DNA of 64,000 bases from an uncultured Candidatus Saccharibacteria bacterium (lineage in GTDB: Bacteria > Patescibacteriota > Minisyncoccia > Phycocordibacterales > UBA918), in contig CAYNQD010000001.1 of NCBI GenBank assembly GCA_964399295.1, positions 7,013 to 71,012 of the forward strand, in the 5' to 3' direction. Below are positions 2 to 29,853 of this stretch, in pieces (the stretch's first letter is position 1; each line of letters begins with the position of its first letter). The notes beneath the pieces are model-generated. The model made no database searches, was not told the origin of the DNA, and was given only the letters and a program-made list of their open reading frames with translations. Position numbers and translations under genes: made by a program.

Positions 2-754
2 AATCGAATTTTTGAGTTGACGGTGGAAGACGTGAAAGGTTCAAATGACGCTTCCGGAGCAGTAGTGCTTCTTGGCAACGAGAGAGGGCCTTACACGGTA
101 AAAGATTATATATCATTTCCTGCTAACTCTTTTGCTTTAAAACTGGGTGAGCGGGCGCGAATACCGGTTACTATATCTATTCCGCCTGATGCTGAACCTG
201 GAGGATTTTACGGTAGTGTTTTGGTATCAACCGTAAAGAGTGAGGGTGATGCTACGGGAGACAACGCCACCAGATCACCAATCATTGCTCGAATCGGGAC
301 TTTGTTTTTTGTAACCGTACCTGGTGAGGTGATAAAAAGCGGTGAAACCAAAAATATTTCCCTGACGGATAAAAAATGGTGGTATGAAAAAGGGCCGATA
401 AAACTAAACATTCTTTATGAAAACACTGGCTCAATCCACCTCAATCCTTACGGTGAACTGAGAATAAAAAATCTTTTTAGTGAAGAAGTGGGGTTTGTGG
501 AATTGGAGCCGTGGTTTGCTTTGCCTGGGTCATTGCGTTCACGCAACATTACTTGGGATCGGGAATTATTATTTGGACGGTACACCGCTGTCGCTTTTGT
601 TAATCGCGGTTATGACAATATTATTGATGAAGTAACAGTCGCTTTTTGGGTTTTGCCTTGGAAAGTGGTGGGCGGTACATTTTTGGTTATATTTATTATT
701 ATTTTCAGTTTACGATCATTCTTCAGAAATTTCGAATTTAAACGTCGAAGTTAA
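2..754 (+). CDS. Cell-surface protein, C-terminal fragment (5' end outside window); beta-rich ectodomain, C-terminal TM helix plus basic tail
   Basis: The frame is open from the window edge and the called start at 17 is TTG. The C-terminus is hydrophobic (LVIFIIIFSL) followed by a basic tail (RNFEFKRRS), as in membrane-anchored surface proteins. It sits 3 nt from the next secreted-protein gene. Resemblance to DUF916/DUF3324 proteins of WxL-type loci is impressionistic. Confidence 0.45.
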   Translation, partial: NRIFELTVEDVKGSNDASGAVVLLGNERGPYTVKDYISFPANSFALKLGERARIPVTISIPPDAEPGGFYGSVLVSTVKSEGDATGDNATRSPIIARIGTLFFVTVPGEVIKSGETKNISLTDKKWWYEKGPIKLNILYENTGSIHLNPYGELRIKNLFSEEVGFVELEPWFALPGSLRSRNITWDRELLFGRYTAVAFVNRGYDNIIDEVTVAFWVLPWKVVGGTFLVIFIIIFSLRSFFRNFEFKRRS

Positions 755-757
755 GAT

Positions 758-1525
758 ATGATTAACCACAGTTTTTTTTACACAATTTTACAGACTTTTG
801 TTCTAACTGCTATTTTGCTTGTCTCTTTGTCTTTGTCAAACGCACAAGTGAGAAGTAGTAGCAATTATCAGTTGCAAAGCGACAGCATAAATTTTGGCGG
901 CGGGTTATCCACTTCCAGCAGCTACTCCCTAGAGAGTACGGCTGGTGAGCTGGCGACCGGAGTGGCGACCAGTTCTTATTATGGACTCAAGGCGGGATAT
1001 CAGCAGATGCAGGAGGTCTTTATTAGCATGACTGCGGTTGATGATGTTGTGATGGCACCCAGCCTGGGAGGAATTACTGGCGGTGTTTCCGATGGAGAAA
1101 CCAGTGTGTCTGTCATAACAGACAGTCCCAGTGGCTACCAATTAACCATCAAAGCGGAAAATGCCCCTGCCATGCAAAAGGGTACGGATACGATTGCTGA
1201 TTATATTCCTCTAGCTTTGCCTGATCCGGACATGTCTTTTTCCGTGCTGCTAAATGACGTACATTTAGGTTTTTCGCCGCAAGGTAGTGATGTTACGCTG
1301 CGGTGGCGAAATGATACTTTTGACTGCAACGCTGGCAGCAACAGTACTCCAGAAACTTGTTGGGATGGATTATCCTTGAGTAATAAGCTGATTGCTCAAG
1401 GGGCGGCCAATCATCCGACGGGAGCCACCACCACCCTTTATTTTAAAGTGGGAATTGGCGGCGGGGTAATAGTGCCAGCGGGGGAATATGTAGCCACCAC
1501 CACTCTAACCGCCCTACCCTTATGA
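758..1525 (+). CDS. Secreted protein with N-terminal signal peptide and Ser/Thr/Gly-rich region (possible WxL-like surface protein)
   Basis: N-terminal signal peptide MINHSFFYTILQTFVLTAILLVSLSLSNAQ. The low-complexity S/T-rich ectodomain ends in TTTLTALPL. The stop TGA overlaps the ATG of the next gene (ATGA at 1522-1525). Confidence 0.45.
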   Translation: MINHSFFYTILQTFVLTAILLVSLSLSNAQVRSSSNYQLQSDSINFGGGLSTSSSYSLESTAGELATGVATSSYYGLKAGYQQMQEVFISMTAVDDVVMAPSLGGITGGVSDGETSVSVITDSPSGYQLTIKAENAPAMQKGTDTIADYIPLALPDPDMSFSVLLNDVHLGFSPQGSDVTLRWRNDTFDCNAGSNSTPETCWDGLSLSNKLIAQGAANHPTGATTTLYFKVGIGGGVIVPAGEYVATTTLTALPL

Positions 1526-3111
1526 TTAAAAAAATTTTCTTAAATTGTTTTCTTCTTTTACTTTGGCCAGCATTTGGCTTGGCAGCGACTAGCGATTTTA
1601 CTGTCAGGACTATAGTCGGTCCTGACACTCAACCGCCAACTACTCCGACTTTATTATCGGCGGTGCCAGTGACGACTGCTCAGATTGACTTGGCCTGGAC
1701 TGCCTCCACGGATAATTTTTTGATGGGCGGGTATGTTGTTCTTAGAGACAGCGTGCCGATAGCAACAACAACCTTAACTAGCTTTAACGATACCGGCTTG
1801 GTTGATGACACTACGTATACTTACGAAGTTTACGCTTTCGACAGCTTTTTTAATCTGTCTTCAACCTCAAATTCGCTCTCAGCTACTACCTTAGCCTTCC
1901 CACTAATACCACCTACGCCAACATCAACGGCCGTTTCGTCCGGTCAAAAACCTTCTTCAAGACCGTTGGTGTTGCTAGATTTTTCCATTGTTACGACCAG
2001 TCAGGCGGCAGCTTTTAGCTGGCAAACTGATTTGCCTTCAAGTTATGTTTTGAGTTGGGGCAAGGCTGACGTTTATGACGGCTATGTGGCCAGTGATATT
2101 TATAGGCAAATCCAAAAAACCACAATTACTGATTTGGAACCGGCGACAACTTATTTTTATGAATTGGTGGCGAAGTCTCCGTCCGGAGTGACGATGACCT
2201 TGAGTCAGGGGCAATTCAAAACTGATGATCTAAAAGAAATTACTCCACCGGCTAATGTCTCCAGACTGCAGGCTGAGGTAAGCGGCGCGGATGTTTTTTT
2301 ATCTTGGCAATTGCCGCCGTCCGTAGACATCAGCGCGATCAGAGTGGTACGCAGCCATCTGGGTTTTCCTATCGACACCAATGACGGACTGATTGTTTAT
2401 GAAGGCTTGGGAATGAAAGTTGTTGATAGGGAGGCTTTGAAACATGATTCTCCCCAGTATTATACAGTCTTTGTAATTGGTAGTGATGGGCTGGTTTCTT
2501 CTGGAGCGGTGGTGAGTGTTAGCCGAGGAGCCATCGTTTTGCCGCCAGTTTTAACCCCCACTGCCACTACTACCGCGACCACTACCATACCGATTATGTC
2601 CACCACCACTGAAGATGTAATAATATTTGGTTTTGATAAAAACAACATAAATATTTCGCAGGACGGAAATAACTTTACGTTTTTAAATGATAAAATAATT
2701 TTGAATTATAAAGCTCCTTTTACAATCAAAATTCCACGTGACTCTTTACCAAGACATTTAAAAGCCATTGTCGTCACCTTGATTGATCCGACAGATCACC
2801 GTCGCAGCTACTCTTTTTTGTTGCGCTTAAACCAAGAAGAAACATATTATGAAGCAATCATCGCTCCGCTTAATATCTTGGGGGCCTCACGGTTGCAGGT
2901 AGAGATTTTTGATTTTGAAAGACAAATAATTGGTCTGTATCGAAAGCAGATTGATTTTGCGGCGACAATTACTGAGGAGCCGGAAGTTGTTTTCCCTGAT
3001 AAGATAGTTGCTTCCGCGGGTAAGACTATGCCTCTTCTTATTTTGGGAGTTTTGATTTTGTTTATAATGATATTCTTGTGGCGGAGAAGAAATCAGGCTG
3101 AGGATAATTAG
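1522..3111 (+). CDS. Surface protein with fibronectin-III-like repeats, Thr/Pro linkers and C-terminal TM anchor plus RRRN tail
   Basis: Signal peptide MIKKIFLNCFLLLLWPAFGLA. Repeated FN3-like segments (DLAWTAS...YTYEVYAFD; AFSWQTD...YFYELVA). TTTATTT linkers. C-terminal hydrophobic helix LLILGVLILFIMIFLW followed by RRRNQ. Translationally coupled to the upstream gene. Confidence 0.5.
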   Translation: MIKKIFLNCFLLLLWPAFGLAATSDFTVRTIVGPDTQPPTTPTLLSAVPVTTAQIDLAWTASTDNFLMGGYVVLRDSVPIATTTLTSFNDTGLVDDTTYTYEVYAFDSFFNLSSTSNSLSATTLAFPLIPPTPTSTAVSSGQKPSSRPLVLLDFSIVTTSQAAAFSWQTDLPSSYVLSWGKADVYDGYVASDIYRQIQKTTITDLEPATTYFYELVAKSPSGVTMTLSQGQFKTDDLKEITPPANVSRLQAEVSGADVFLSWQLPPSVDISAIRVVRSHLGFPIDTNDGLIVYEGLGMKVVDREALKHDSPQYYTVFVIGSDGLVSSGAVVSVSRGAIVLPPVLTPTATTTATTTIPIMSTTTEDVIIFGFDKNNINISQDGNNFTFLNDKIILNYKAPFTIKIPRDSLPRHLKAIVVTLIDPTDHRRSYSFLLRLNQEETYYEAIIAPLNILGASRLQVEIFDFERQIIGLYRKQIDFAATITEEPEVVFPDKIVASAGKTMPLLILGVLILFIMIFLWRRRNQAEDN

Positions 3112-24516: not shown

Positions 24517-25599
24517 TTACTGTATCACCATCGCCGTATGAAATAAGGCGTTATTATTGTAATTGATATCTGAGGGAACCATCACTTCAATGCTTATATT
24601 TTGGAGATTGATTTCCGTAACCGTTGTAAATCTCAAGGTGATAACGGCTCTTTCGTTGGGTAAAAGTGGTCTTTGGACATCAGAAGTATAGCTTACATTA
24701 CCTGGAAGTTGGGCTTTGAAAATCCAATCCTCTGAAGTTTTGTTTCCGATGTTGTGTACGGTGAATTGTATGGCGTTGGACAGACCTTTAATCAAATTAT
24801 CGGTCTTAACAAAACCTTGAATATTGTTTTCAAAACCTATATTTAAGCCACCCACCGCTAAGTCTGTAAATCCGTTGGGATTTGAAACCGGTATTGCATA
24901 AGTGTAGACAGGAACAGCTGGTGTGGGTTTAACCACTGCCGGCTTTGGAGTCTCAGGTACTGTCGGGGTCGGTACTTCGACTTCAGCTGGTTCTTCTGCC
25001 GGCTTTGGAGTCGTTAATGTTTCTTCCGGCTCTGTAGTTTGTTGGTCTCCATTAGTATCGTCAGCAATCGTTTCTGAAATATTGGCATTGATGATAGAGA
25101 TATTTTTTACTTGGCTGGCATTAGGAGAGCTGGAGTTTTTACGGAAATAGGCGATAGTGTAATTGACTTCGGTAAAACGCGCCTTTTCGGAATCAACCCT
25201 CATTTCAATCCTATCAACCAATCCCAAATCGTAATTGTTGTCGCAGGAGATGCTGGTAAATTCCTGTTTTGATGATTGGATATCAATAGCGATACCATCT
25301 TGACATTCATAACTAAAAACATAAGTACCGGTAGTGCGGTTATTTTCCCACCAAATTTCCAGAACATTACTACTATTCATAATACTGCGGTCTGAAATGA
25401 CAGAGAGGGCGTCATCGTCGGAGCGATAGTTGTAAACGGTATCCGCCAAAGAAGCCAAAGAACTAACTGCGCTAGGGAATAATTTGACAATTTGAGTGGC
25501 TGACCAAGCAAAAAACAGAATAAAAATAACAATTCCGATGACAGTCACTAATTTGCCAAAGGTAGTTTTTTTAGTAGTCGCTGCTGTTGAATTTTCCAT
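24517..25599 (-). CDS. Surface protein with N-terminal signal anchor and Pro/Thr/Glu-rich linker
   Basis: First ATG at 25599 (MENSTAATTKK...); the ORF-track start at 25650 is TTG. A TM helix is followed by the linker TPKPAEEPAEVEVPTPTVPETPKPAVVKPTPAVP and a beta-rich C-terminal domain. Confidence 0.5.
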   Translation of the reverse strand: MENSTAATTKKTTFGKLVTVIGIVIFILFFAWSATQIVKLFPSAVSSLASLADTVYNYRSDDDALSVISDRSIMNSSNVLEIWWENNRTTGTYVFSYECQDGIAIDIQSSKQEFTSISCDNNYDLGLVDRIEMRVDSEKARFTEVNYTIAYFRKNSSSPNASQVKNISIINANISETIADDTNGDQQTTEPEETLTTPKPAEEPAEVEVPTPTVPETPKPAVVKPTPAVPVYTYAIPVSNPNGFTDLAVGGLNIGFENNIQGFVKTDNLIKGLSNAIQFTVHNIGNKTSEDWIFKAQLPGNVSYTSDVQRPLLPNERAVITLRFTTVTEINLQNISIEVMVPSDINYNNNALFHTAMVIQ

Positions 25600-25688
25600 A
25601 ATGCTGAAAACACTACTATAATTTAATCGTTTTGTCAACTTTCCGCGCAAGTTACCTTTTAATATTTACATAAATGAAAAGTGTGTTA

Positions 25689-25717
25689 TTGACAATTTAT
25701 ATACAGTATGTTATCAT
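25689..25717 (+). promoter_or_regulatory. Sigma-70-type promoter for sortase gene
   Basis: TTGACA, 17-nt spacer, TATCAT, about 20 nt upstream of the ATG at 25739. Confidence 0.4.
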
Positions 25718-25738: not shown

Positions 25739-26428
25739 ATGAGCGACCAACCAAGCAAAAGGACAACCATTGATTTAATTATAGAAAAAAAGGTGCCTTT
25801 CGTGTGCGTTTTTTTTGTAGTTTTTTTGATAACCTATGCTTTTTTAGCATGGATTGATTTTTTACCGGAGCCGGTATCTTCAAGTCCGGAAACGGAAGAA
25901 ATAAAAGTAGATATAAATACTGAAGAAGAAACAATTGAAAATGAAGAGGTGTCAATAACTGAACCGGAAATAATAATGGTTGAAAATATCTTACCCGAAA
26001 AAATTATTTTTGATTCCCTTGACCGTACTGTTTCCGTTTTAAATCCAACTTCAAAAACCATTGCAGACTTAGACCATGCCTTGTTGAGTGGAGTGGTAAG
26101 GCACCCAGATTCAGCTACTTTGGAGCAATTAGGTTCAGTCTTTATTCTTGGTCATTCAAGTTATTTACCGGCTGTAAATAATGAAAATTATAAGGCTTTC
26201 AACGGCATTCAAAATCTAAAATGGGGAGATACCATAAGATTGCAGGCCGGTAACAAAGAGTATGTCTATCGCGTTGATAAAGTATTTCAAGCTTATGCTA
26301 CGACCGCCAGCGTACCAATCGCGGTAGGAAAACAGCGTTTGGTATTGGCTACGTGCAACAGTTTTGGGTCGGTAGATGATCGTTATATTGTTGAAGCTGA
26401 TTTATTGGAGGTGAGAGCGGTGTCGTAA
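25739..26428 (+). CDS. Sortase-family transpeptidase (membrane-anchored)
   Basis: N-terminal TM helix. Catalytic triad contexts VFILGHSS (His), RLVLATCNS (TLxTC-like Cys motif) and DRYIVEAD (Arg). Confidence 0.7.
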   Translation: MSDQPSKRTTIDLIIEKKVPFVCVFFVVFLITYAFLAWIDFLPEPVSSSPETEEIKVDINTEEETIENEEVSITEPEIIMVENILPEKIIFDSLDRTVSVLNPTSKTIADLDHALLSGVVRHPDSATLEQLGSVFILGHSSYLPAVNNENYKAFNGIQNLKWGDTIRLQAGNKEYVYRVDKVFQAYATTASVPIAVGKQRLVLATCNSFGSVDDRYIVEADLLEVRAVS

Positions 26429-26661
26429 GGAAATGTGATAAATTTTCATCTCGTTCTTTTATGTATTGACAGCATTGATATTTATAGTTAAATTACGCTT
26501 AATAGTTAGGCGATTGGTTCTCTCTTCAGTCTTTTTACAAATATTTTTTTATAAACAATTCATTTCCATGAATGGTAGTTTGTGATTTTTTTTACTCTTG
26601 CGTACTTAATTAGGGTGTAGGTGAGGGTATAGAGCTTATAAATTATTAAATTGTTTAGGTT

Positions 26662-29600
26662 ATGAAATTTTTGAAAAAATTAACACCATATTTTTTGGTT
26701 TTGGCTTTGATAGTCAATATTTTTAATTTTGGATCATATGATCCGCAGAATGAACTAGGGTCTCTAAATCCGGGATTAGCTTTGGCGACTTCAACTTTTG
26801 GAACCTCAGGTTTGGAAACTCCAAGTTTGGAAACTCCAAAATTATCTGCGGATAATTTTGGAGAAATTGAACAGTCATCTTTTTCCAGCAACATGTCTTT
26901 TTCCGGCGGAACGACTTTAAATTTGTTGAAACAGGAAAGTAGTAATTCTTCAAGCCAGTCAAGTCATTCGTACCACAGTGATAAATTTGTTGGTACTTGT
27001 AATATTTCTGCCAATGTTGAACAGGTTTCTTTTGGTTCTGACGTTGTCATCAGTTGGTCAACTGCAGGTTTTTCCAATGTCACGATAAATGGAGTGTCTG
27101 TGAGCAATTCCGGCACCAAGACTTTCTATAATATAGAGGAAAATACCACCTACACCCTAGTGGCTAAATCTGAAAATGGTAAATCAAATTGTACCTCAGC
27201 TATCGTGGTAAAGTGTTTGCCAAAGCCACCAGTGCCACCGGCACCCCGAACTCCAACTTGTACTCTCACTCCAGTCACTAAGACCATACATAGCGGCGAA
27301 AGCGTAGATTTGGTTTGGACAACTACCAATTCTTCTAATGCTACTCTAACTGATTTTGGTGATGTGGATTTAAATGGAACCAAGAATACCGACGTACTAA
27401 CTGAGGGCAAGGAATATACTTTGGAGGTTTTGGGATTTAATGATGATACCGTAACTTGCAGCTCAAAGATAACAGTAAAACCAAAGCCAACACCGGTTCC
27501 AACTTGTGATTTGTTTACTGTAACACCAAATAGTATTGTGCGTGGCAATTCGTCTGAGTTGGTGTGGAAGACAAGCAACGCTACGCGCGTGGCCATCAAT
27601 AATGGAATTGGCGAGGTAGAAGCTACTGGTAAGTTGTCTGTTAAGCCTTTGGCTACGACTGAATATGTGATGACAGTTTTTGGAGCTAATAATAAAAAAG
27701 CTACCTGTAAGCAAACTTTGACTGTGACGGAACCTCCGGTTGTTAAGGTGCCGATGTGTCTTACTTTTAACGCGACACCTTTTGCTTTGCCTTTTGGCGG
27801 CGGTCAGTCGGAAATAAAATGGACAACTGAGAATGCTACTAAAGTTGTAATTAGCGGAATTGGCGAGGTGACAGTCAATGGCTCAAAGACAGTGAATATT
27901 TCAGAAACTACTACTTACACTTTGATCGCTTCTGATTCTAAAAAGAAACATTCTTGTTTTGTAACAATTGATGTGGAACCGGAATTGCCGCCTCCAACCC
28001 CGCCTCCAACTTGTACTCTAACTCCAGCCACCAAAAATATAACTAGCGGCGAAAGCGTAGACTTGGTTTGGACAACTACCAACGCCACCAATGCTTATCT
28101 AACTGATTTTGACAGCGTGGAGCTAAACGGCACGAAGAACACTGGCGCTTTGACGGAAGGCAAGGAATATACTTTAGAGGTTTTGGGGATGAATGACGAA
28201 GCTATAACCTGTACTTCCAAAATTAGCTTGAGTACTTTGCCGCCTACTCCAACTCCAATTTCTTGTAGCGCCAATGTAAGCTTGTCGGCTAATCCAAGCA
28301 GTATTACTCGTGGTAATTCAACTACTATTACTTGGAGTACGACCAATATTACCGGATTGAGTTTTGATAATGGTATCAACTCAACCAGTACTAGCGGTTC
28401 GGTAACTGTTTCTCCAACCAGCAATACCACTTATTCCTTAACTGCGACTGACGGAAAAGATACGATAGTTTGTCCAGTGCCAGTGACTGTCAATAATCCA
28501 CCAACTACAACTGGTGGTGGAGGTGGCGGCGGCGGTTCATCAGCACCAACTTGTGAACTAAATATATCTGATAGAAAAATAAAACGAGGTGAGGACATCA
28601 GACTTAATTGGGACAGCAACCGAGCAACTGATTTGACTATTATTGACGGTACCGGCAAAGTGTTGGTAACAACTAAAAATAAATTAAGCCGCGATAAGGA
28701 CGAACTCTTTAGAGGTGCAATGACTCTAATTCCGACTGCTAATACTACTTACACCATGACCGTGGAAAGAGGTTCACAAGATCGGGTCTGTACAGCTAGT
28801 GTGGAAATAGAAGGTAGTACCGTGGTGGTGACGCAAATACGAGACCAGCAGCCTTTAATCGCTAGCATCTCCTTAGTGGACGTACCATATACCGGTTTTG
28901 AGGCTGGTCCAATTCTAACTGTGTTGTTTTACACGCTATTGATGCTTTGGGCTTTGTACATTGCTTACTTGTGGGTGATTCGTAGGAATCCCAACGGCGA
29001 CTTTCAGTTAGCCATGCCAGAAAATATCGTCGCTTCTAATATCAAAACTGTAGGTGAAGTTATCCGTCCTGATGTCTTTGTGGCTAAGGTGCAGGTTCCG
29101 GAACGAAACTTGGAAACGATTGTTCCAGCTAATTTACCAGTTGGTAATCCGGTGGTTGGTTATGCTAGTCAAGATGACACAAAAGCACAGGTGACAGCAA
29201 ATTTACATTCAGTAGATGATGAAGCGGCTACTCAGATTGAAAATTACGCGCATTCACAGCATGTTCTATTATCGAGCGATGCTATCCGTCATTTTGTTGC
29301 TACGACTAATAATTCCGAAGAACGAGTAATGGCTCTTAATCAAATCATGGCAGCTAGCAAGGCTCAATTTCCGGCAGAGGATGGTTGGATTGTTATTAAT
29401 GAAAAGCGAATGAGGGACTTGTGTGAGGTTTGTTCTGTTAATCAGATCAGCGCAAATGATGTTCCTTATATCCCAACCGTTATTCCTGAAGGCGCTGGCT
29501 CTTTGGCCGAAGCGATCGTGACTGGCAATATTGTCGCTGCTTACGAACTTATTGGACATCGTCCAATGTTTGCTTTGGCGGACGCGGCGGCAGACTTGGA

Positions 29601-29793
29601 TTCTGTGTACCGAGTGCGCCGTGGCGGAAAGGAGGTTATTTCTGATTTGCTTATTAAGGAAACAGAAAAACTAACTGATGAGCAACTCGTGGCTATGATT
29701 GGAGCTTTGACCGGAGCTCTTGATGGCACTTACAATGATGAAGCTTCAGCCGTGAAAATGGCCATTATGAAGGCGGTGAAGGTGGTGGCGTAA
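26662..29793 (+). CDS. Giant surface protein: signal peptide, about 7 Cys-bracketed Ig-like domains, poly-Gly linker, LPxTG-like VPYTG + TM + RRN segment, then a ~270-aa C-terminal domain
   Basis: Signal peptide MKFLKKLTPYFLVLALIVNIF. Repeated ~80-aa modules each beginning (P)TC and ending xC...V. GGGGGGGGSS linker. VPYTG at 28882-28896 is followed by a 22-aa hydrophobic helix and RRN. The C-terminal domain lacks TM segments. Confidence 0.6.
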   Translation: MKFLKKLTPYFLVLALIVNIFNFGSYDPQNELGSLNPGLALATSTFGTSGLETPSLETPKLSADNFGEIEQSSFSSNMSFSGGTTLNLLKQESSNSSSQSSHSYHSDKFVGTCNISANVEQVSFGSDVVISWSTAGFSNVTINGVSVSNSGTKTFYNIEENTTYTLVAKSENGKSNCTSAIVVKCLPKPPVPPAPRTPTCTLTPVTKTIHSGESVDLVWTTTNSSNATLTDFGDVDLNGTKNTDVLTEGKEYTLEVLGFNDDTVTCSSKITVKPKPTPVPTCDLFTVTPNSIVRGNSSELVWKTSNATRVAINNGIGEVEATGKLSVKPLATTEYVMTVFGANNKKATCKQTLTVTEPPVVKVPMCLTFNATPFALPFGGGQSEIKWTTENATKVVISGIGEVTVNGSKTVNISETTTYTLIASDSKKKHSCFVTIDVEPELPPPTPPPTCTLTPATKNITSGESVDLVWTTTNATNAYLTDFDSVELNGTKNTGALTEGKEYTLEVLGMNDEAITCTSKISLSTLPPTPTPISCSANVSLSANPSSITRGNSTTITWSTTNITGLSFDNGINSTSTSGSVTVSPTSNTTYSLTATDGKDTIVCPVPVTVNNPPTTTGGGGGGGGSSAPTCELNISDRKIKRGEDIRLNWDSNRATDLTIIDGTGKVLVTTKNKLSRDKDELFRGAMTLIPTANTTYTMTVERGSQDRVCTASVEIEGSTVVVTQIRDQQPLIASISLVDVPYTGFEAGPILTVLFYTLLMLWALYIAYLWVIRRNPNGDFQLAMPENIVASNIKTVGEVIRPDVFVAKVQVPERNLETIVPANLPVGNPVVGYASQDDTKAQVTANLHSVDDEAATQIENYAHSQHVLLSSDAIRHFVATTNNSEERVMALNQIMAASKAQFPAEDGWIVINEKRMRDLCEVCSVNQISANDVPYIPTVIPEGAGSLAEAIVTGNIVAAYELIGHRPMFALADAAADLDSVYRVRRGGKEVISDLLIKETEKLTDEQLVAMIGALTGALDGTYNDEASAVKMAIMKAVKVVA
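27256..27480 (+). repeat. Intragenic direct repeat copy 1 (Ig-like domain 2) of surface protein
   Basis: About 80% nucleotide and 85% amino-acid identity to 28009-28233 (TCTLTP..SGESVDLVWTTTN...LTEGKEYTLEVLG...TCxSKI). Confidence 0.7.
28009..28233 (+). repeat. Intragenic direct repeat copy 2 (Ig-like domain 5) of surface protein
   Basis: Near-identical to 27256-27480, separated by about 750 bp within the same ORF. Confidence 0.7.
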
Positions 29794-29821: not shown

Positions 29822-29853
29822 AAAAGCCCCGCGCCGTAGGCGCGGGGCTTTTG
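29822..29853. terminator. Bidirectional terminator between convergent surface-protein gene and thrS
   Basis: 10-bp stem gccccgcgcc / ggcgcggggc, loop gtag, A-run upstream and T-run downstream. Confidence 0.7.

What the first reader, a model, noticed from the sequence alone, without database searches (positions are those of the whole stretch)
25739..29793. Sortase adjacent to a 1043-aa Ig-repeat surface protein whose LPxTG-like signal is internal
The sortase-family gene shows the His/Cys/Arg contexts ILGHSS, LVLATC and DRY. Immediately upstream of the sortase's candidate substrate gene lies the standard cell-wall sorting signal architecture: pentapeptide V-P-Y-T-G, spacer FEAGP, a 22-residue hydrophobic helix and RRN. 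In this protein that signal sits at residues ~742-775, not at the C-terminus. It is followed by a ~270-aa non-membrane domain that would stay cytoplasmic. If the sortase cleaves at T|G, the ectodomain is transferred and a TM-anchored cytoplasmic fragment is released. That is an unusual coupling of surface display to an intracellular domain. Two other surface proteins in the window (1522-3111 and 2-754) also end with a hydrophobic helix plus basic tail but have no obvious LPxTG.
Basis: partly seen in the sequence, partly recalled or inferred. Interest (0 to 1): 0.7.

Follow-up and report, generated by a model that had tools for sequence, protein, structure and literature searches.

The report
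Sortase signal followed by cytoplasmic domain
A tiny-genome (Patescibacteria) bacterium encodes a sortase next to a giant surface protein whose cell-wall sorting signal lies inside the protein and is followed by a conserved 270-residue intracellular domain; this layout is conserved in hundreds of related species and, as far as I could find, has not been described for sortase substrates.

Summary
Window 25739-26428 encodes a sortase: a Pfam hit, an intact His/Cys/Arg triad and an N-terminal membrane anchor. It reaches no NCBIfam class cut-off. Window 26662-29793 encodes a 1043-aa protein with these parts, in order:
- a signal peptide;
- seven Cys-bracketed Ig-like modules;
- VPYTG (aa 741-745), FEAGP, a 23-residue TM helix and RRN;
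- a disordered linker of about 70 aa;
- a confidently folded helical domain of about 195 aa.

The layout is not an accident. About 185 related sequences keep [VILT]-P-[YHQE]-T-G, with P, T and G invariant, always followed by the TM helix and the tail. The family has 660 clusters at 50% identity, all in Patescibacteria. The tail matches no sequence family. Its fold resembles the lid/collar domains of AAA+ clamp-loader subunits but has no ATPase core.

Two natural variants are informative:
- In one subclade the zero frame stops just after the basic residues, giving a canonical C-terminal sorting signal. The tail is reached only by a -1 shift at an A9 run.
- In another clade the ectodomain and pentapeptide are absent, yet a TM-hairpin-plus-tail protein still sits directly after an intact sortase.

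Most likely the sortase cleaves at T|G and the membrane-anchored tail stays behind as a functional unit linked to the sortase. Cleavage, the tail's function and the existence of other substrates are untested.

The parts
25689..25717 (+). Promoter-like site (TTGACA-17-TATCAT, TG extension) 22 nt upstream of the sortase start codon
   Evidence: 11 of 12 matches. This is a consensus match only; the region as a whole has no more such sites than shuffled sequence.
25739..26428 (+). Sortase gene (229 aa). It has an N-terminal membrane anchor (aa 19-42, nt 25793-25864), an acidic linker and a catalytic domain with His in ILGHSS (nt 26144-26161), Cys in LVLATC (nt 26339-26356) and Arg in DDRY (nt 26375-26386).
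   Evidence: ORF. (PF04203, E=5.6e-17). (no class model reaches its cut-off). (nearest solved sortases are B. anthracis 2ln7 and 2kw8, E about 1e-5 to 1e-6, aligned through TLxTC and the Arg). (the triad is conserved in 69 orthologues).
26662..29793 (+). Gene for the 1043-aa surface protein with the internal sorting signal and the cytoplasmic tail
   Evidence: No Pfam or NCBIfam hit. Orthologues of 650-1480 aa have the same architecture.
26662..26736 (+). Signal peptide (aa 1-25: KFLKK, then a hydrophobic core)
   Evidence: This is one of only two hydrophobic segments in the protein.
26998..28791 (+). Ectodomain of seven Ig-like modules, each bracketed by a Cys pair (aa 113-710). It is rich in Thr, Ser and Asn. 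A Gly8 linker lies at aa 618-625.
   Evidence: Cys positions, C...W.T repeats, composition. (the last module, aa 624-717, is a beta-sandwich with pLDDT above 90).
28840..28881 (+). Conserved juxtamembrane segment RDQQPLIASISLVD; the family consensus is R-D-Q-Q-P-L-V-A-G-I-S-L-[ST]-Q
   Evidence: G at -6, I at -5 and L at -3 are nearly invariant. The segment is extended and of low confidence in the model.
28882..28896 (+). Pentapeptide VPYTG, the candidate sortase recognition and cleavage site (T|G)
   Evidence: The motif is [VILT]P[YHQE]TG, with P, T and G invariant in about 185 sequences.
28897..28989 (+). Spacer FEAGP, TM helix ILTVLFYTLLMLWALYIAYLWVI and basic stop-transfer residues RRN
   Evidence: F+5 and G+8 are invariant. 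Inside the helix F, Y, L, W and Y are invariant. R or K occupies +33 and +34. AF2 models a helix over aa 750-773.
28990..29202 (+). Disordered cytoplasmic linker carrying two conserved short motifs, RPDVF (nt 29065-29079) and NLPVG...GY (nt 29131 onward)
   Evidence: P, N, L and P are nearly invariant. (pLDDT about 40).
29203..29790 (+). Conserved C-terminal tail domain (aa 848-1043). It has two mostly helical subdomains that resemble an AAA+ lid and collar, with no P-loop.
29822..29852 (.). Bidirectional terminator hairpin (14-bp stem) between the surface-protein gene and the convergent thrS gene
24517..25650 (-). Divergently transcribed neighbour (377 aa) with an N-terminal TM and a CARDB-like C-terminal domain. 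Whether it belongs to the system is unknown.
   Evidence: CARDB, E=2e-4, just below the cut-off. (found on the opposite strand in 64 related loci; in nearly all of those with a detected sortase it lies directly upstream of it, but the whole neighbourhood is syntenic).

Best explanation
This is a dedicated sortase-substrate pair in a Patescibacteria (Paceibacteria-type) genome.

Proposed sequence of events:
- The 1043-aa precursor is exported by its signal peptide.
- The single TM helix (aa 751-773) stops transfer. The Ig-repeat ectodomain ends up outside and the 267-residue tail inside.
- The membrane-anchored sortase encoded 233 nt upstream recognises VPYTG. The motif sits in a flexible segment five residues above the membrane.
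- The sortase cleaves between T745 and G746 and transfers the ectodomain to the cell wall or another amine acceptor.
- The fragment G-FEAGP-TM-linker-tail remains in the membrane.

That fragment is a functional unit and not waste. Its conserved TM helix and its AAA+-lid/collar-like helical domain act together with the sortase. Possible roles are docking the precursor to the enzyme, or coupling surface display to a cytoplasmic partner through the tail and the linker motifs.

Shown: the gene structures, the conservation, the fold and the natural variants. Inferred: the topology, the cleavage, the acceptor and the role of the tail.
For: 1. The sortase is real and its triad is intact.
2. The internal module has every part of a cell-wall sorting signal: the pentapeptide, a 5-residue spacer, a 23-residue hydrophobic helix and RR.
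3. Its variation is that of a sortase motif. P, T and G are invariant, position 1 is V/I/L/T and position 3 is Y/H/Q/E. This holds in 79 distinct sequences from related loci and 106 further cluster representatives. Every representative in that set of 360 aa or more carries it.
4. In one subclade the zero reading frame ends '...VPYTGF[ED]AGP-TM-[IVL]KKKVS*'. That is a canonical C-terminal sorting signal placed exactly at the signal/tail junction (L058, L062, and the independent assemblies L087, L088 and L089).
5. A sortase orthologue lies upstream on the same strand in 59 of 62 loci with enough upstream flank.
6. Topology. The protein has only two hydrophobic segments. D/E precede the TM and RR follow it. 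The ectodomain is rich in Cys pairs and S/T/N, while the tail is Ala-rich, richer in charged residues and has a single CxxC. The hairpin variants also place the tail on the N-terminal, cytoplasmic side.
7. VPYTG lies in an unstructured stretch between the last Ig domain and the TM helix.
8. The tail module has a role of its own. Many tail residues are invariant and so are F, Y, L, W and Y in the TM. A TM-hairpin-plus-tail protein without ectodomain directly follows an intact sortase in 6 of 6 loci examined.
9. A second Ig-repeat protein in L069 carries VPETG + TM + R. This agrees with a VPxTG preference in this sortase clade.
Against: - No experiment or proteomic data shows cleavage.
- The sortase reaches no class cut-off, so its specificity cannot be read from homology.
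- The whole neighbourhood gyrB / 377-aa gene / sortase / surface protein / thrS / dnaE is syntenic across the clade. thrS and dnaE are as constantly adjacent as the sortase. Adjacency alone is therefore weak evidence of a functional link.
- F+5, A+7, G+8 and P+9 are as invariant as the pentapeptide. F+5 and G+8 survive in the hairpin variants that lack P and T. Part of the conservation therefore serves something other than sortase recognition.
- The hairpin clade keeps an intact sortase without a recognisable substrate within 6-8 kb. The sortase must therefore have another substrate or role, at least in that clade.
- The fold of the tail is a generic helical interaction module and does not point to a function.
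Confidence: 0.55

Rival explanations
1. The protein is an uncleaved type I membrane adhesin or receptor. It stays intact, with the Ig repeats outside and the helical tail inside as a signalling or anchoring domain. VPYTGFEAGP is then a conserved juxtamembrane structural element or a non-catalytic docking site. The neighbouring sortase works on other proteins encoded elsewhere.
For: The spacer residues and the TM helix are as conserved as the pentapeptide. The hairpin variants show that the TM-plus-tail unit works without any pentapeptide, and that the sortase is kept even then. Sortase adjacency is no more constant than general synteny.
Against: P, T and G are invariant while positions 1 and 3 vary, which is exactly the sortase-motif pattern. 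A whole subclade terminates its zero frame right after the basic residues, producing a textbook sorting signal. No other candidate substrate appears in the window or in about 0.98 Mb of related loci, apart from one VPETG protein.
Confidence: 0.2
2. The TM-plus-tail unit is primarily a sortase accessory factor that stabilises, localises or regulates the enzyme, functionally comparable to SafA of Actinobacteria. Its fusion behind the substrate is a secondary gene fusion. Cleavage merely liberates the accessory factor, and the hairpin form is the free-standing version.
For: The hairpin-plus-tail gene starts 6-17 nt after, or overlaps, the end of an intact sortase gene in six loci. The TM residues are invariant. 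There is a precedent for a small membrane protein genetically linked to a housekeeping sortase that protects it from signal peptidase (PMC9282373, found).
Against: There is no sequence or motif resemblance to SafA; the window protein has no FPW. The cytoplasmic N-terminus of the sortase is not conserved, so there is no obvious cytoplasmic contact for the tail. This reading overlaps with the best explanation more than it excludes it.
Confidence: 0.2
3. The architecture is an artefact. A frameshift or assembly error has fused a normal sortase substrate, which should end at RRN, to a separate downstream gene.
For: Split versions do exist in some relatives, and the frame change there sits at homopolymer A runs, which is where sequencing errors cluster.
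Against: The window ORF is uninterrupted and has no A or T run of 7 or more. The fused form occurs in 70 of 83 loci and 106 of 131 cluster representatives from many independent assemblies. The linker continues in frame and carries conserved motifs. The split forms themselves are conserved across diverged sequences and recur in independent samples.
Confidence: 0.02

Closest known systems
LPXTG-type cell-wall sorting signals and housekeeping or dedicated sortases of Gram-positive bacteria (for example S. aureus SrtA with protein A, or single-target sortases such as SrtB-IsdC)
   Same: The enzyme is a membrane-anchored Cys transpeptidase with a His/Cys/Arg triad. The signal is tripartite: an xPxTG pentapeptide, a short spacer, a hydrophobic helix of about 20 residues, then basic residues. 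The substrate is a repeat-rich, Ig-like surface protein encoded next to the enzyme.
   Different: The signal is not C-terminal. A conserved disordered linker and a folded domain of about 195 aa follow it. The TM helix is highly conserved where one would expect it to be merely hydrophobic. The pentapeptide is VPYTG. The sortase fits none of the NCBIfam class models. The host is a Patescibacteria lineage.
Sensing of the C-terminal peptide left in the membrane after sortase cleavage (S. gordonii SGO_1180 two-component system, as summarised in PMC11326707)
   Same: The membrane remnant of a sortase reaction has a biological role inside the cell.
   Different: In S. gordonii the remnant is a short peptide sensed by a separate histidine kinase. 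Here the remnant would itself carry a large conserved cytoplasmic domain. No kinase is involved, and nothing has been tested.
SafA, the small membrane protein genetically linked to actinobacterial SrtA (PMC9282373)
   Same: A membrane protein is encoded directly beside the sortase gene and is conserved across a lineage. The hairpin-plus-tail variants have this same arrangement.
   Different: There is no FPW motif and no sequence similarity. This protein is much larger and has a cytoplasmic helical domain. In most species it is fused behind the substrate.
Lid (domain II) and collar (domain III) of AAA+ clamp-loader subunits (E. coli tau/gamma, delta and delta'; RFC)
   Different: The tail has no ATPase (P-loop) domain. 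No sequence-level relationship was detected. The TM-scores are low (about 0.4). The domain is membrane-tethered. The resemblance is structural only.
dnaX-type programmed -1 frameshifting, or transcriptional slippage at A runs
   Same: In relatives, not in this window, the junction between the sorting signal and the tail carries A AAA AAG within an A9 run. The tail lies in the -1 frame.
   Different: Here the unshifted product would be the short one, a canonical sortase substrate, and the shifted product the long one. No stimulatory element was examined and nothing has been shown experimentally.

Membership tests
Sortase (Pfam PF04203) | Sequence match above the Pfam gathering score | tested here: met
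   62.1 bits against a cut-off of 26.6, E=5.6e-17, covering aa 93-222.
Sortase (Pfam PF04203) | Catalytic His, the Cys of TLxTC, and Arg | tested here: met
   ILGHSS, LVLATC and DDRY are present. They align with the TLTTC and DRY of B. anthracis 2ln7 and are conserved in orthologues.
Sortase (Pfam PF04203) | Transpeptidase activity on a defined motif | not testable with these tools
   This requires enzyme assays.
Sortase classes A-F / GN (NCBIfam class models) | Score above the class-specific cut-off | tested here: not met
   the best hit is the class D 'SrtD' model at 36.9 bits against 140. Class D scores 32.6 against 165, class E 24.7 against 160, class C 21.6 against 160 and class GN 21.5 against 158.
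LPXTG-type cell-wall sorting signal | Pentapeptide with conserved P, T and G | tested here: met
   VPYTG at aa 741-745. P, T and G are invariant in about 185 homologues.
LPXTG-type cell-wall sorting signal | Hydrophobic helix followed by positively charged residues within about 10 residues of the pentapeptide | tested here: met
   Spacer of 5 residues, helix at 751-773, then RRN. R or K is present at +33/+34 in nearly all homologues.
LPXTG-type cell-wall sorting signal | Location at the extreme C-terminus of the precursor | tested here: not met
   267 residues follow in the window protein. The distance from the motif to the C-terminus is 184-412 residues (median 299) in 106 representatives. 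The feature is met only by the zero-frame products of the split relatives.
LPXTG-type cell-wall sorting signal | Match to the curated LPXTG-anchor model in NCBIfam/TIGRFAM | tested here: not met
   No NCBIfam family hit the 1043-aa protein at E<=0.1.
LPXTG-type cell-wall sorting signal | Cleavage between T and G and linkage to peptidoglycan | not testable with these tools
   This requires biochemistry or mass spectrometry.
AAA+ lid/collar (clamp-loader domains II-III) | Fold similarity | tested here: inconclusive
AAA+ lid/collar (clamp-loader domains II-III) | Sequence-level relationship or an adjoining P-loop ATPase domain | tested here: not met
   There is no Pfam, NCBIfam or PDB sequence hit. 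The region before the tail is a disordered linker.
SafA-like sortase-associated membrane protein | Conserved FPW motif mediating the contact with the sortase | tested here: not met
   No FPW occurs in the window protein sequence. The nearest string is FPAEDGW, which lies inside the cytoplasmic tail.
SafA-like sortase-associated membrane protein | Gene directly adjacent to the sortase gene across a lineage | tested here: met

The most novel reading that the evidence does not exclude
The sorting reaction is a maturation step that produces two functional proteins from one precursor: a wall-linked Ig-repeat adhesin, and one membrane-tethered cytoplasmic AAA+-lid-like module for each adhesin displayed. 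That module stays with the sortase. Through its conserved TM helix, its linker motifs and its helical domain it couples or reports surface display to an intracellular partner. Some lineages tune the ratio of the two products by -1 slippage at an A9 run placed exactly at the junction. Others express the module alone.
Probability: 0.3. Interest if true: 0.85.

Novelty: new variant of a known kind. Interest (0 to 1): 0.66.

Why it matters
In the textbook description of sortase substrates, the sorting signal ends the protein and its membrane remnant is disposable. Here a large, lineage-wide family breaks that rule. It has 660 clusters at 50% identity, is apparently single-copy within each locus examined, and sits among housekeeping genes in Patescibacteria. 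If the sortase does cleave, each display event leaves a defined cytoplasmic domain at the membrane. That would be a built-in link between the surface and the interior in organisms thought to live attached to other cells.

The finding also provides three further things. It suggests a candidate VPxTG specificity for an unclassified CPR sortase clade. It defines a new conserved domain with no annotation. It offers a natural set of variants (fused, frameshift-split and hairpin-only) that makes the question testable.

Tried and rejected
- **Search for other substrates with a sorting-signal profile** (44 columns). The word index produced only 105 candidates and one hit, a split-type ORF. The search says nothing about other substrates.
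- **Protein search with the sortase** to reach distant sortases and their neighbours. The 120 listed hits all belong to the same clade (53-65% identity), so specificity could not be inferred from sister systems.
- **afdb50 fold library.** It was not available.
- **Alignment of full-length representatives for the second structure model.** The tool failed, so I used the first homologue set instead.
- **Pfam, NCBIfam and PDB sequence searches of the tail and the ectodomain.** No hit.
- **Literature.** There were no hits for 'VPYTG' or 'internal LPXTG'. Papers on CPR genomes mention sortases only in general terms. No report of this architecture turned up in a broader search.
- **Extra genes between the sortase and the surface-protein gene in some loci.** They are variable small secreted proteins with no counterpart in the window, so I did not pursue them.
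- **Considered and rejected: the tail lies outside the cell.** Rejected on charge, composition and the hairpin variants.
- **Considered and rejected: the fusion is an assembly artefact.** Rejected because it recurs in independent assemblies.
- **Considered and rejected: sortase-assembled pilus.** There is only one sortase in the locus, and no pilin-type protein or second sortase was seen nearby. A pilin Lys motif was not specifically searched for.

Full report
**1. What is in the sequence**

The window has about 43% G+C and carries housekeeping genes: gyrB, thrS, dnaE, rpoB, rpoC, dnaG, pheT, an SMC protein and RNase R. Every relative found comes from the Patescibacteria (Paceibacteria, Kaiserbacteria and Nomurabacteria).

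The ORF at 25739-26428(+) encodes a 229-aa sortase.
- It hits Pfam PF04203 at E=5.6e-17, above the gathering score.
- It has a hydrophobic N-terminal anchor at aa 19-42.
- The catalytic residues sit in ILGHSS, LVLATC and DDRY.
- The nearest solved structures are the Bacillus anthracis sortases 2ln7 and 2kw8 (E=4e-6 and 2e-5). The alignments run through the TLxTC Cys and the Arg.
- No NCBIfam class model comes near its cut-off. The best is a class D model at 36.9 bits against 140. The enzyme is therefore an unclassified sortase.

After a gap of 233 nt, the ORF at 26662-29793(+) encodes 1043 aa. It contains only two hydrophobic segments: the signal peptide (aa 3-25) and aa 750-773. Between them lie seven modules, each bracketed by a Cys pair and carrying a C...W.T signature. 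This region is rich in Thr, Ser and Asn. A Gly8 linker precedes the last module. AlphaFold2 models the last module (aa 624-717) as a beta-sandwich with pLDDT above 90.

The rest of the protein runs as follows:
- RDQQPLIASISLVD;
- VPYTG, aa 741-745;
- FEAGP;
- ILTVLFYTLLMLWALYIAYLWVI, aa 751-773;
- RRN;
- a linker of about 70 residues, aa 777-847, with pLDDT about 40;
- a domain of about 195 residues, modelled at mean pLDDT 88 when predicted alone.

A strong hairpin terminator at 29822-29852 separates the gene from the convergent thrS. A six-frame scan shows that this is the only pentapeptide + TM + basic module in the 64-kb window. One of them carries fn3 repeats.

**2. Is the internal signal conserved?**

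A protein search with aa 721-1043 found 185 homologues, all unnamed. All 30 that extend far enough upstream keep [VL]P[YH]TG-F-x-AG + TM + R/K.

A scan of one genome per GTDB species gave 98 relatives, of which 80 loci were kept. I called stop-to-stop ORFs in those loci and in three loci fetched earlier. In 70 of the 83 loci a single ORF of 650-1450 aa contains the ectodomain, the pentapeptide, the TM helix and the tail.

Across 79 distinct sequences:
- P+1, T+3, G+4, F+5 and G+8 are invariant.
- V at position 0 occurs in 76 of 79.
- Y at +2 occurs in 77 of 79.

A full HMMER pass over 1.84 billion cluster representatives found 660 family members at E<=1e-3, and the tail is always at the extreme C-terminus. 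Of 131 new representatives, 106 carry the pentapeptide: VPYTG 85, IPYTG 9, LPYTG 5, TPYTG 2, IPHTG 2, VPHTG 1, LPQTG 1 and IPETG 1. None of 360 aa or more lacks it. Invariant P, T and G with variable positions 1 and 3 is what a sortase recognition motif looks like.

Not everything conserved here is explained by sortase recognition. The spacer is just as conserved. The TM helix has invariant F, Y, L, W and Y, which is unusual for a sorting-signal helix.

**3. Natural variants**

(a) Split genes. In L058 and L062 the upstream ORF ends '...VPYTGFEAGP-TM-VIKKKVS*'. This is a textbook C-terminal sorting signal. The tail continues in the -1 frame from the same lysines ('KKKGFLGF', matching the '...ILGFSL' seen at this position in fused proteins). 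The DNA at the junction is ATA AAA AAA AAG G, which is an A9 run containing the dnaX-type heptamer A AAA AAG.

The same arrangement recurs in two ENA assemblies from different samples (L087, L088) and in a diverged Logan assembly (L089). It also appears as the out-of-frame N-termini of several protein clusters that share less than 50% identity: P0090, P0091, P0096, P0116, P0207, P0215 and P0230. It is therefore a conserved feature and not random error.

Five further loci (L082, L083, L067, L073, L076) need the same -1 shift at A7-A9 runs further downstream. Whichever mechanism operates (ribosomal frameshifting, transcriptional slippage or two separate genes), the ectodomain plus signal is viable as a canonical sortase substrate. 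The signal/tail boundary is thus a functional joint.

The window gene itself has no A or T run of 7 or more and is simply fused.

(b) Hairpin variants. About twenty protein clusters of 317-344 aa lack both the ectodomain and the pentapeptide. They begin with a hydrophobic helix and a tight G-x-[FY]-G-x-G turn. That turn aligns with the T-G-F-E-A-G of the fused form. The family TM helix, the linker and the tail follow.

In all six loci examined (L003/L038, L043, L047, L084, L085, L086) this gene starts 6-17 nt after, or overlaps, the end of a sortase gene, in the same syntenic position. The triad motifs were confirmed in L003 and L047; my motif patterns found only the His context in L043, and L084-L086 were not checked. 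No ectodomain homologue or sorting signal lies within 6-8 kb. The TM-plus-tail unit therefore has a sortase-linked role that does not depend on being a substrate.

**4. Context**

A sortase orthologue lies upstream on the same strand in 59 of 62 loci with at least 2.5 kb of upstream sequence. However, the whole block gyrB / 377-aa gene(-) / sortase / surface protein / thrS(-) / dnaE(-) is syntenic. thrS and dnaE are each present in 60 of 64 loci. Adjacency by itself is therefore weak evidence of a functional link.

In about 0.98 Mb of window plus related loci, the only other sorting-signal-like module is in a second Ig-repeat protein in L069. That module is VPETG + TM + R, followed by 45 residues that contain another hydrophobic stretch.

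**5. The tail**

The tail has no hit in Pfam or NCBIfam and no sequence hit in the PDB. The model shows two mostly helical subdomains.

So the tail looks like an AAA+ lid plus collar without the ATPase core. That is a protein-protein interaction fold. I treat this as a resemblance, not as membership.

The disordered linker carries two conserved short motifs, RPDVF and NLP[VT]G..GY. Motifs of this kind in a disordered linker typically bind partner proteins.

**6. Topology**

No dedicated predictor was available, so the argument is indirect.
- The protein has a signal peptide plus a single TM helix.
- Acidic residues precede the helix and RR follows it.
- The ectodomain has 15 Cys in module-bracketing pairs and is rich in S, T and N.
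- The tail is Ala-rich, richer in charged residues and has a single CxxC.
- The hairpin variants put the tail on the same side as the N-terminus, which has no signal peptide.

All of this is consistent with a cytoplasmic tail.

**7. Most likely mechanism**

The steps are export, stop-transfer, recognition of VPYTG, cleavage at T|G, and transfer of the ectodomain to the wall. VPYTG lies in a flexible stretch five residues above the membrane. An NlpC/P60 peptidoglycan hydrolase gene in the window shows that this organism has a wall.

The fragment G746-A1043 stays behind as a membrane-tethered cytoplasmic module that functions with the sortase. The anatomy, the conservation, the fold and the variants are shown here. 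The cleavage, the acceptor and the role of the tail are inferred.

The main rival is an uncleaved type I receptor whose neighbouring sortase serves other substrates. A second reading treats the TM-plus-tail unit as primarily a sortase accessory factor, analogous to SafA (PMC9282373). That reading overlaps with the preferred model more than it competes with it. An assembly artefact is excluded.

**8. Comparison with what is known, and novelty**

The system works like a sortase with an LPXTG-type substrate, and the sortase is a member of PF04203. The substrate fails one defining feature of a cell-wall sorting signal, namely its position at the C-terminus. The sortase fails every class model.

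The known role of the post-cleavage peptide in Streptococcus gordonii (summarised in PMC11326707) is the nearest precedent for a functional remnant, but that peptide carries no domain. I found no literature on this architecture.

I file it as a new variant of a known kind. It is well supported as a conserved family and unproven as a mechanism.

Noticed in passing
L058 5805-5835, L062 5805-5835, L087 690-715, L088 630-650, L089 935-960; also L082, L083, L067, L073 and L076: In a subclade of relatives, the surface-protein gene stops right after the sorting signal ('KKKVS*') at an A9 run containing A AAA AAG, and the tail domain continues in the -1 frame. The arrangement is conserved across diverged sequences and independent assemblies. 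It is a candidate programmed -1 frameshift or transcriptional slippage site that would yield two products.
   Followed up: partly
L003 7286-8972, L043, L047, L084 6784-8456, L085 4149-5945, L086 1235-2934: A sister clade has no ectodomain and no pentapeptide. A 317-344-aa protein (TM hairpin + linker + tail) is encoded directly after the sortase gene (the catalytic triad was confirmed in L003 and L047), and no recognisable substrate lies within 6-8 kb.
   Followed up: partly
L069 6642-8429 (+): A second Ig-repeat surface protein lies downstream of the tail gene. It ends in VPETG + TM + HVGR, followed by 45 more residues that contain another hydrophobic segment. This is another non-canonical sorting-signal-like C-terminus in the same clade.
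   Followed up: no
window 24517-25650 (-): A 377-aa protein with an N-terminal TM and a CARDB-like C-terminal domain is transcribed divergently from the sortase. The same arrangement occurs in 64 related loci. Whether it belongs to the system or is merely syntenic is unknown.
   Followed up: partly
window 28990-29202 (aa 777-847): The disordered cytoplasmic linker carries two conserved short motifs, RPDVF and NLP[VT]G..GY. In many relatives the second reads NLPTG, which resembles but does not match LPxTG.
   Followed up: no
window 2-3111 (+): A cluster of three surface-protein genes. The first and third end in a TM helix plus basic residues without any PxTG. The third has fn3 repeats.
   Followed up: partly
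L057, L060, L070: These loci come from MAGs labelled Patiriisocius, Azotimanducaceae and Acidimicrobiales, but they carry the typical Patescibacteria gene block. The bins are probably contaminated.
   Followed up: no
L051 3060-3761, L052 2063-2818 and similar gaps in about 20 loci: Some relatives have one or two small secreted proteins inserted between the sortase and the surface-protein gene. Some of these have a twin-arginine-like signal. The window has no counterpart.
   Followed up: no
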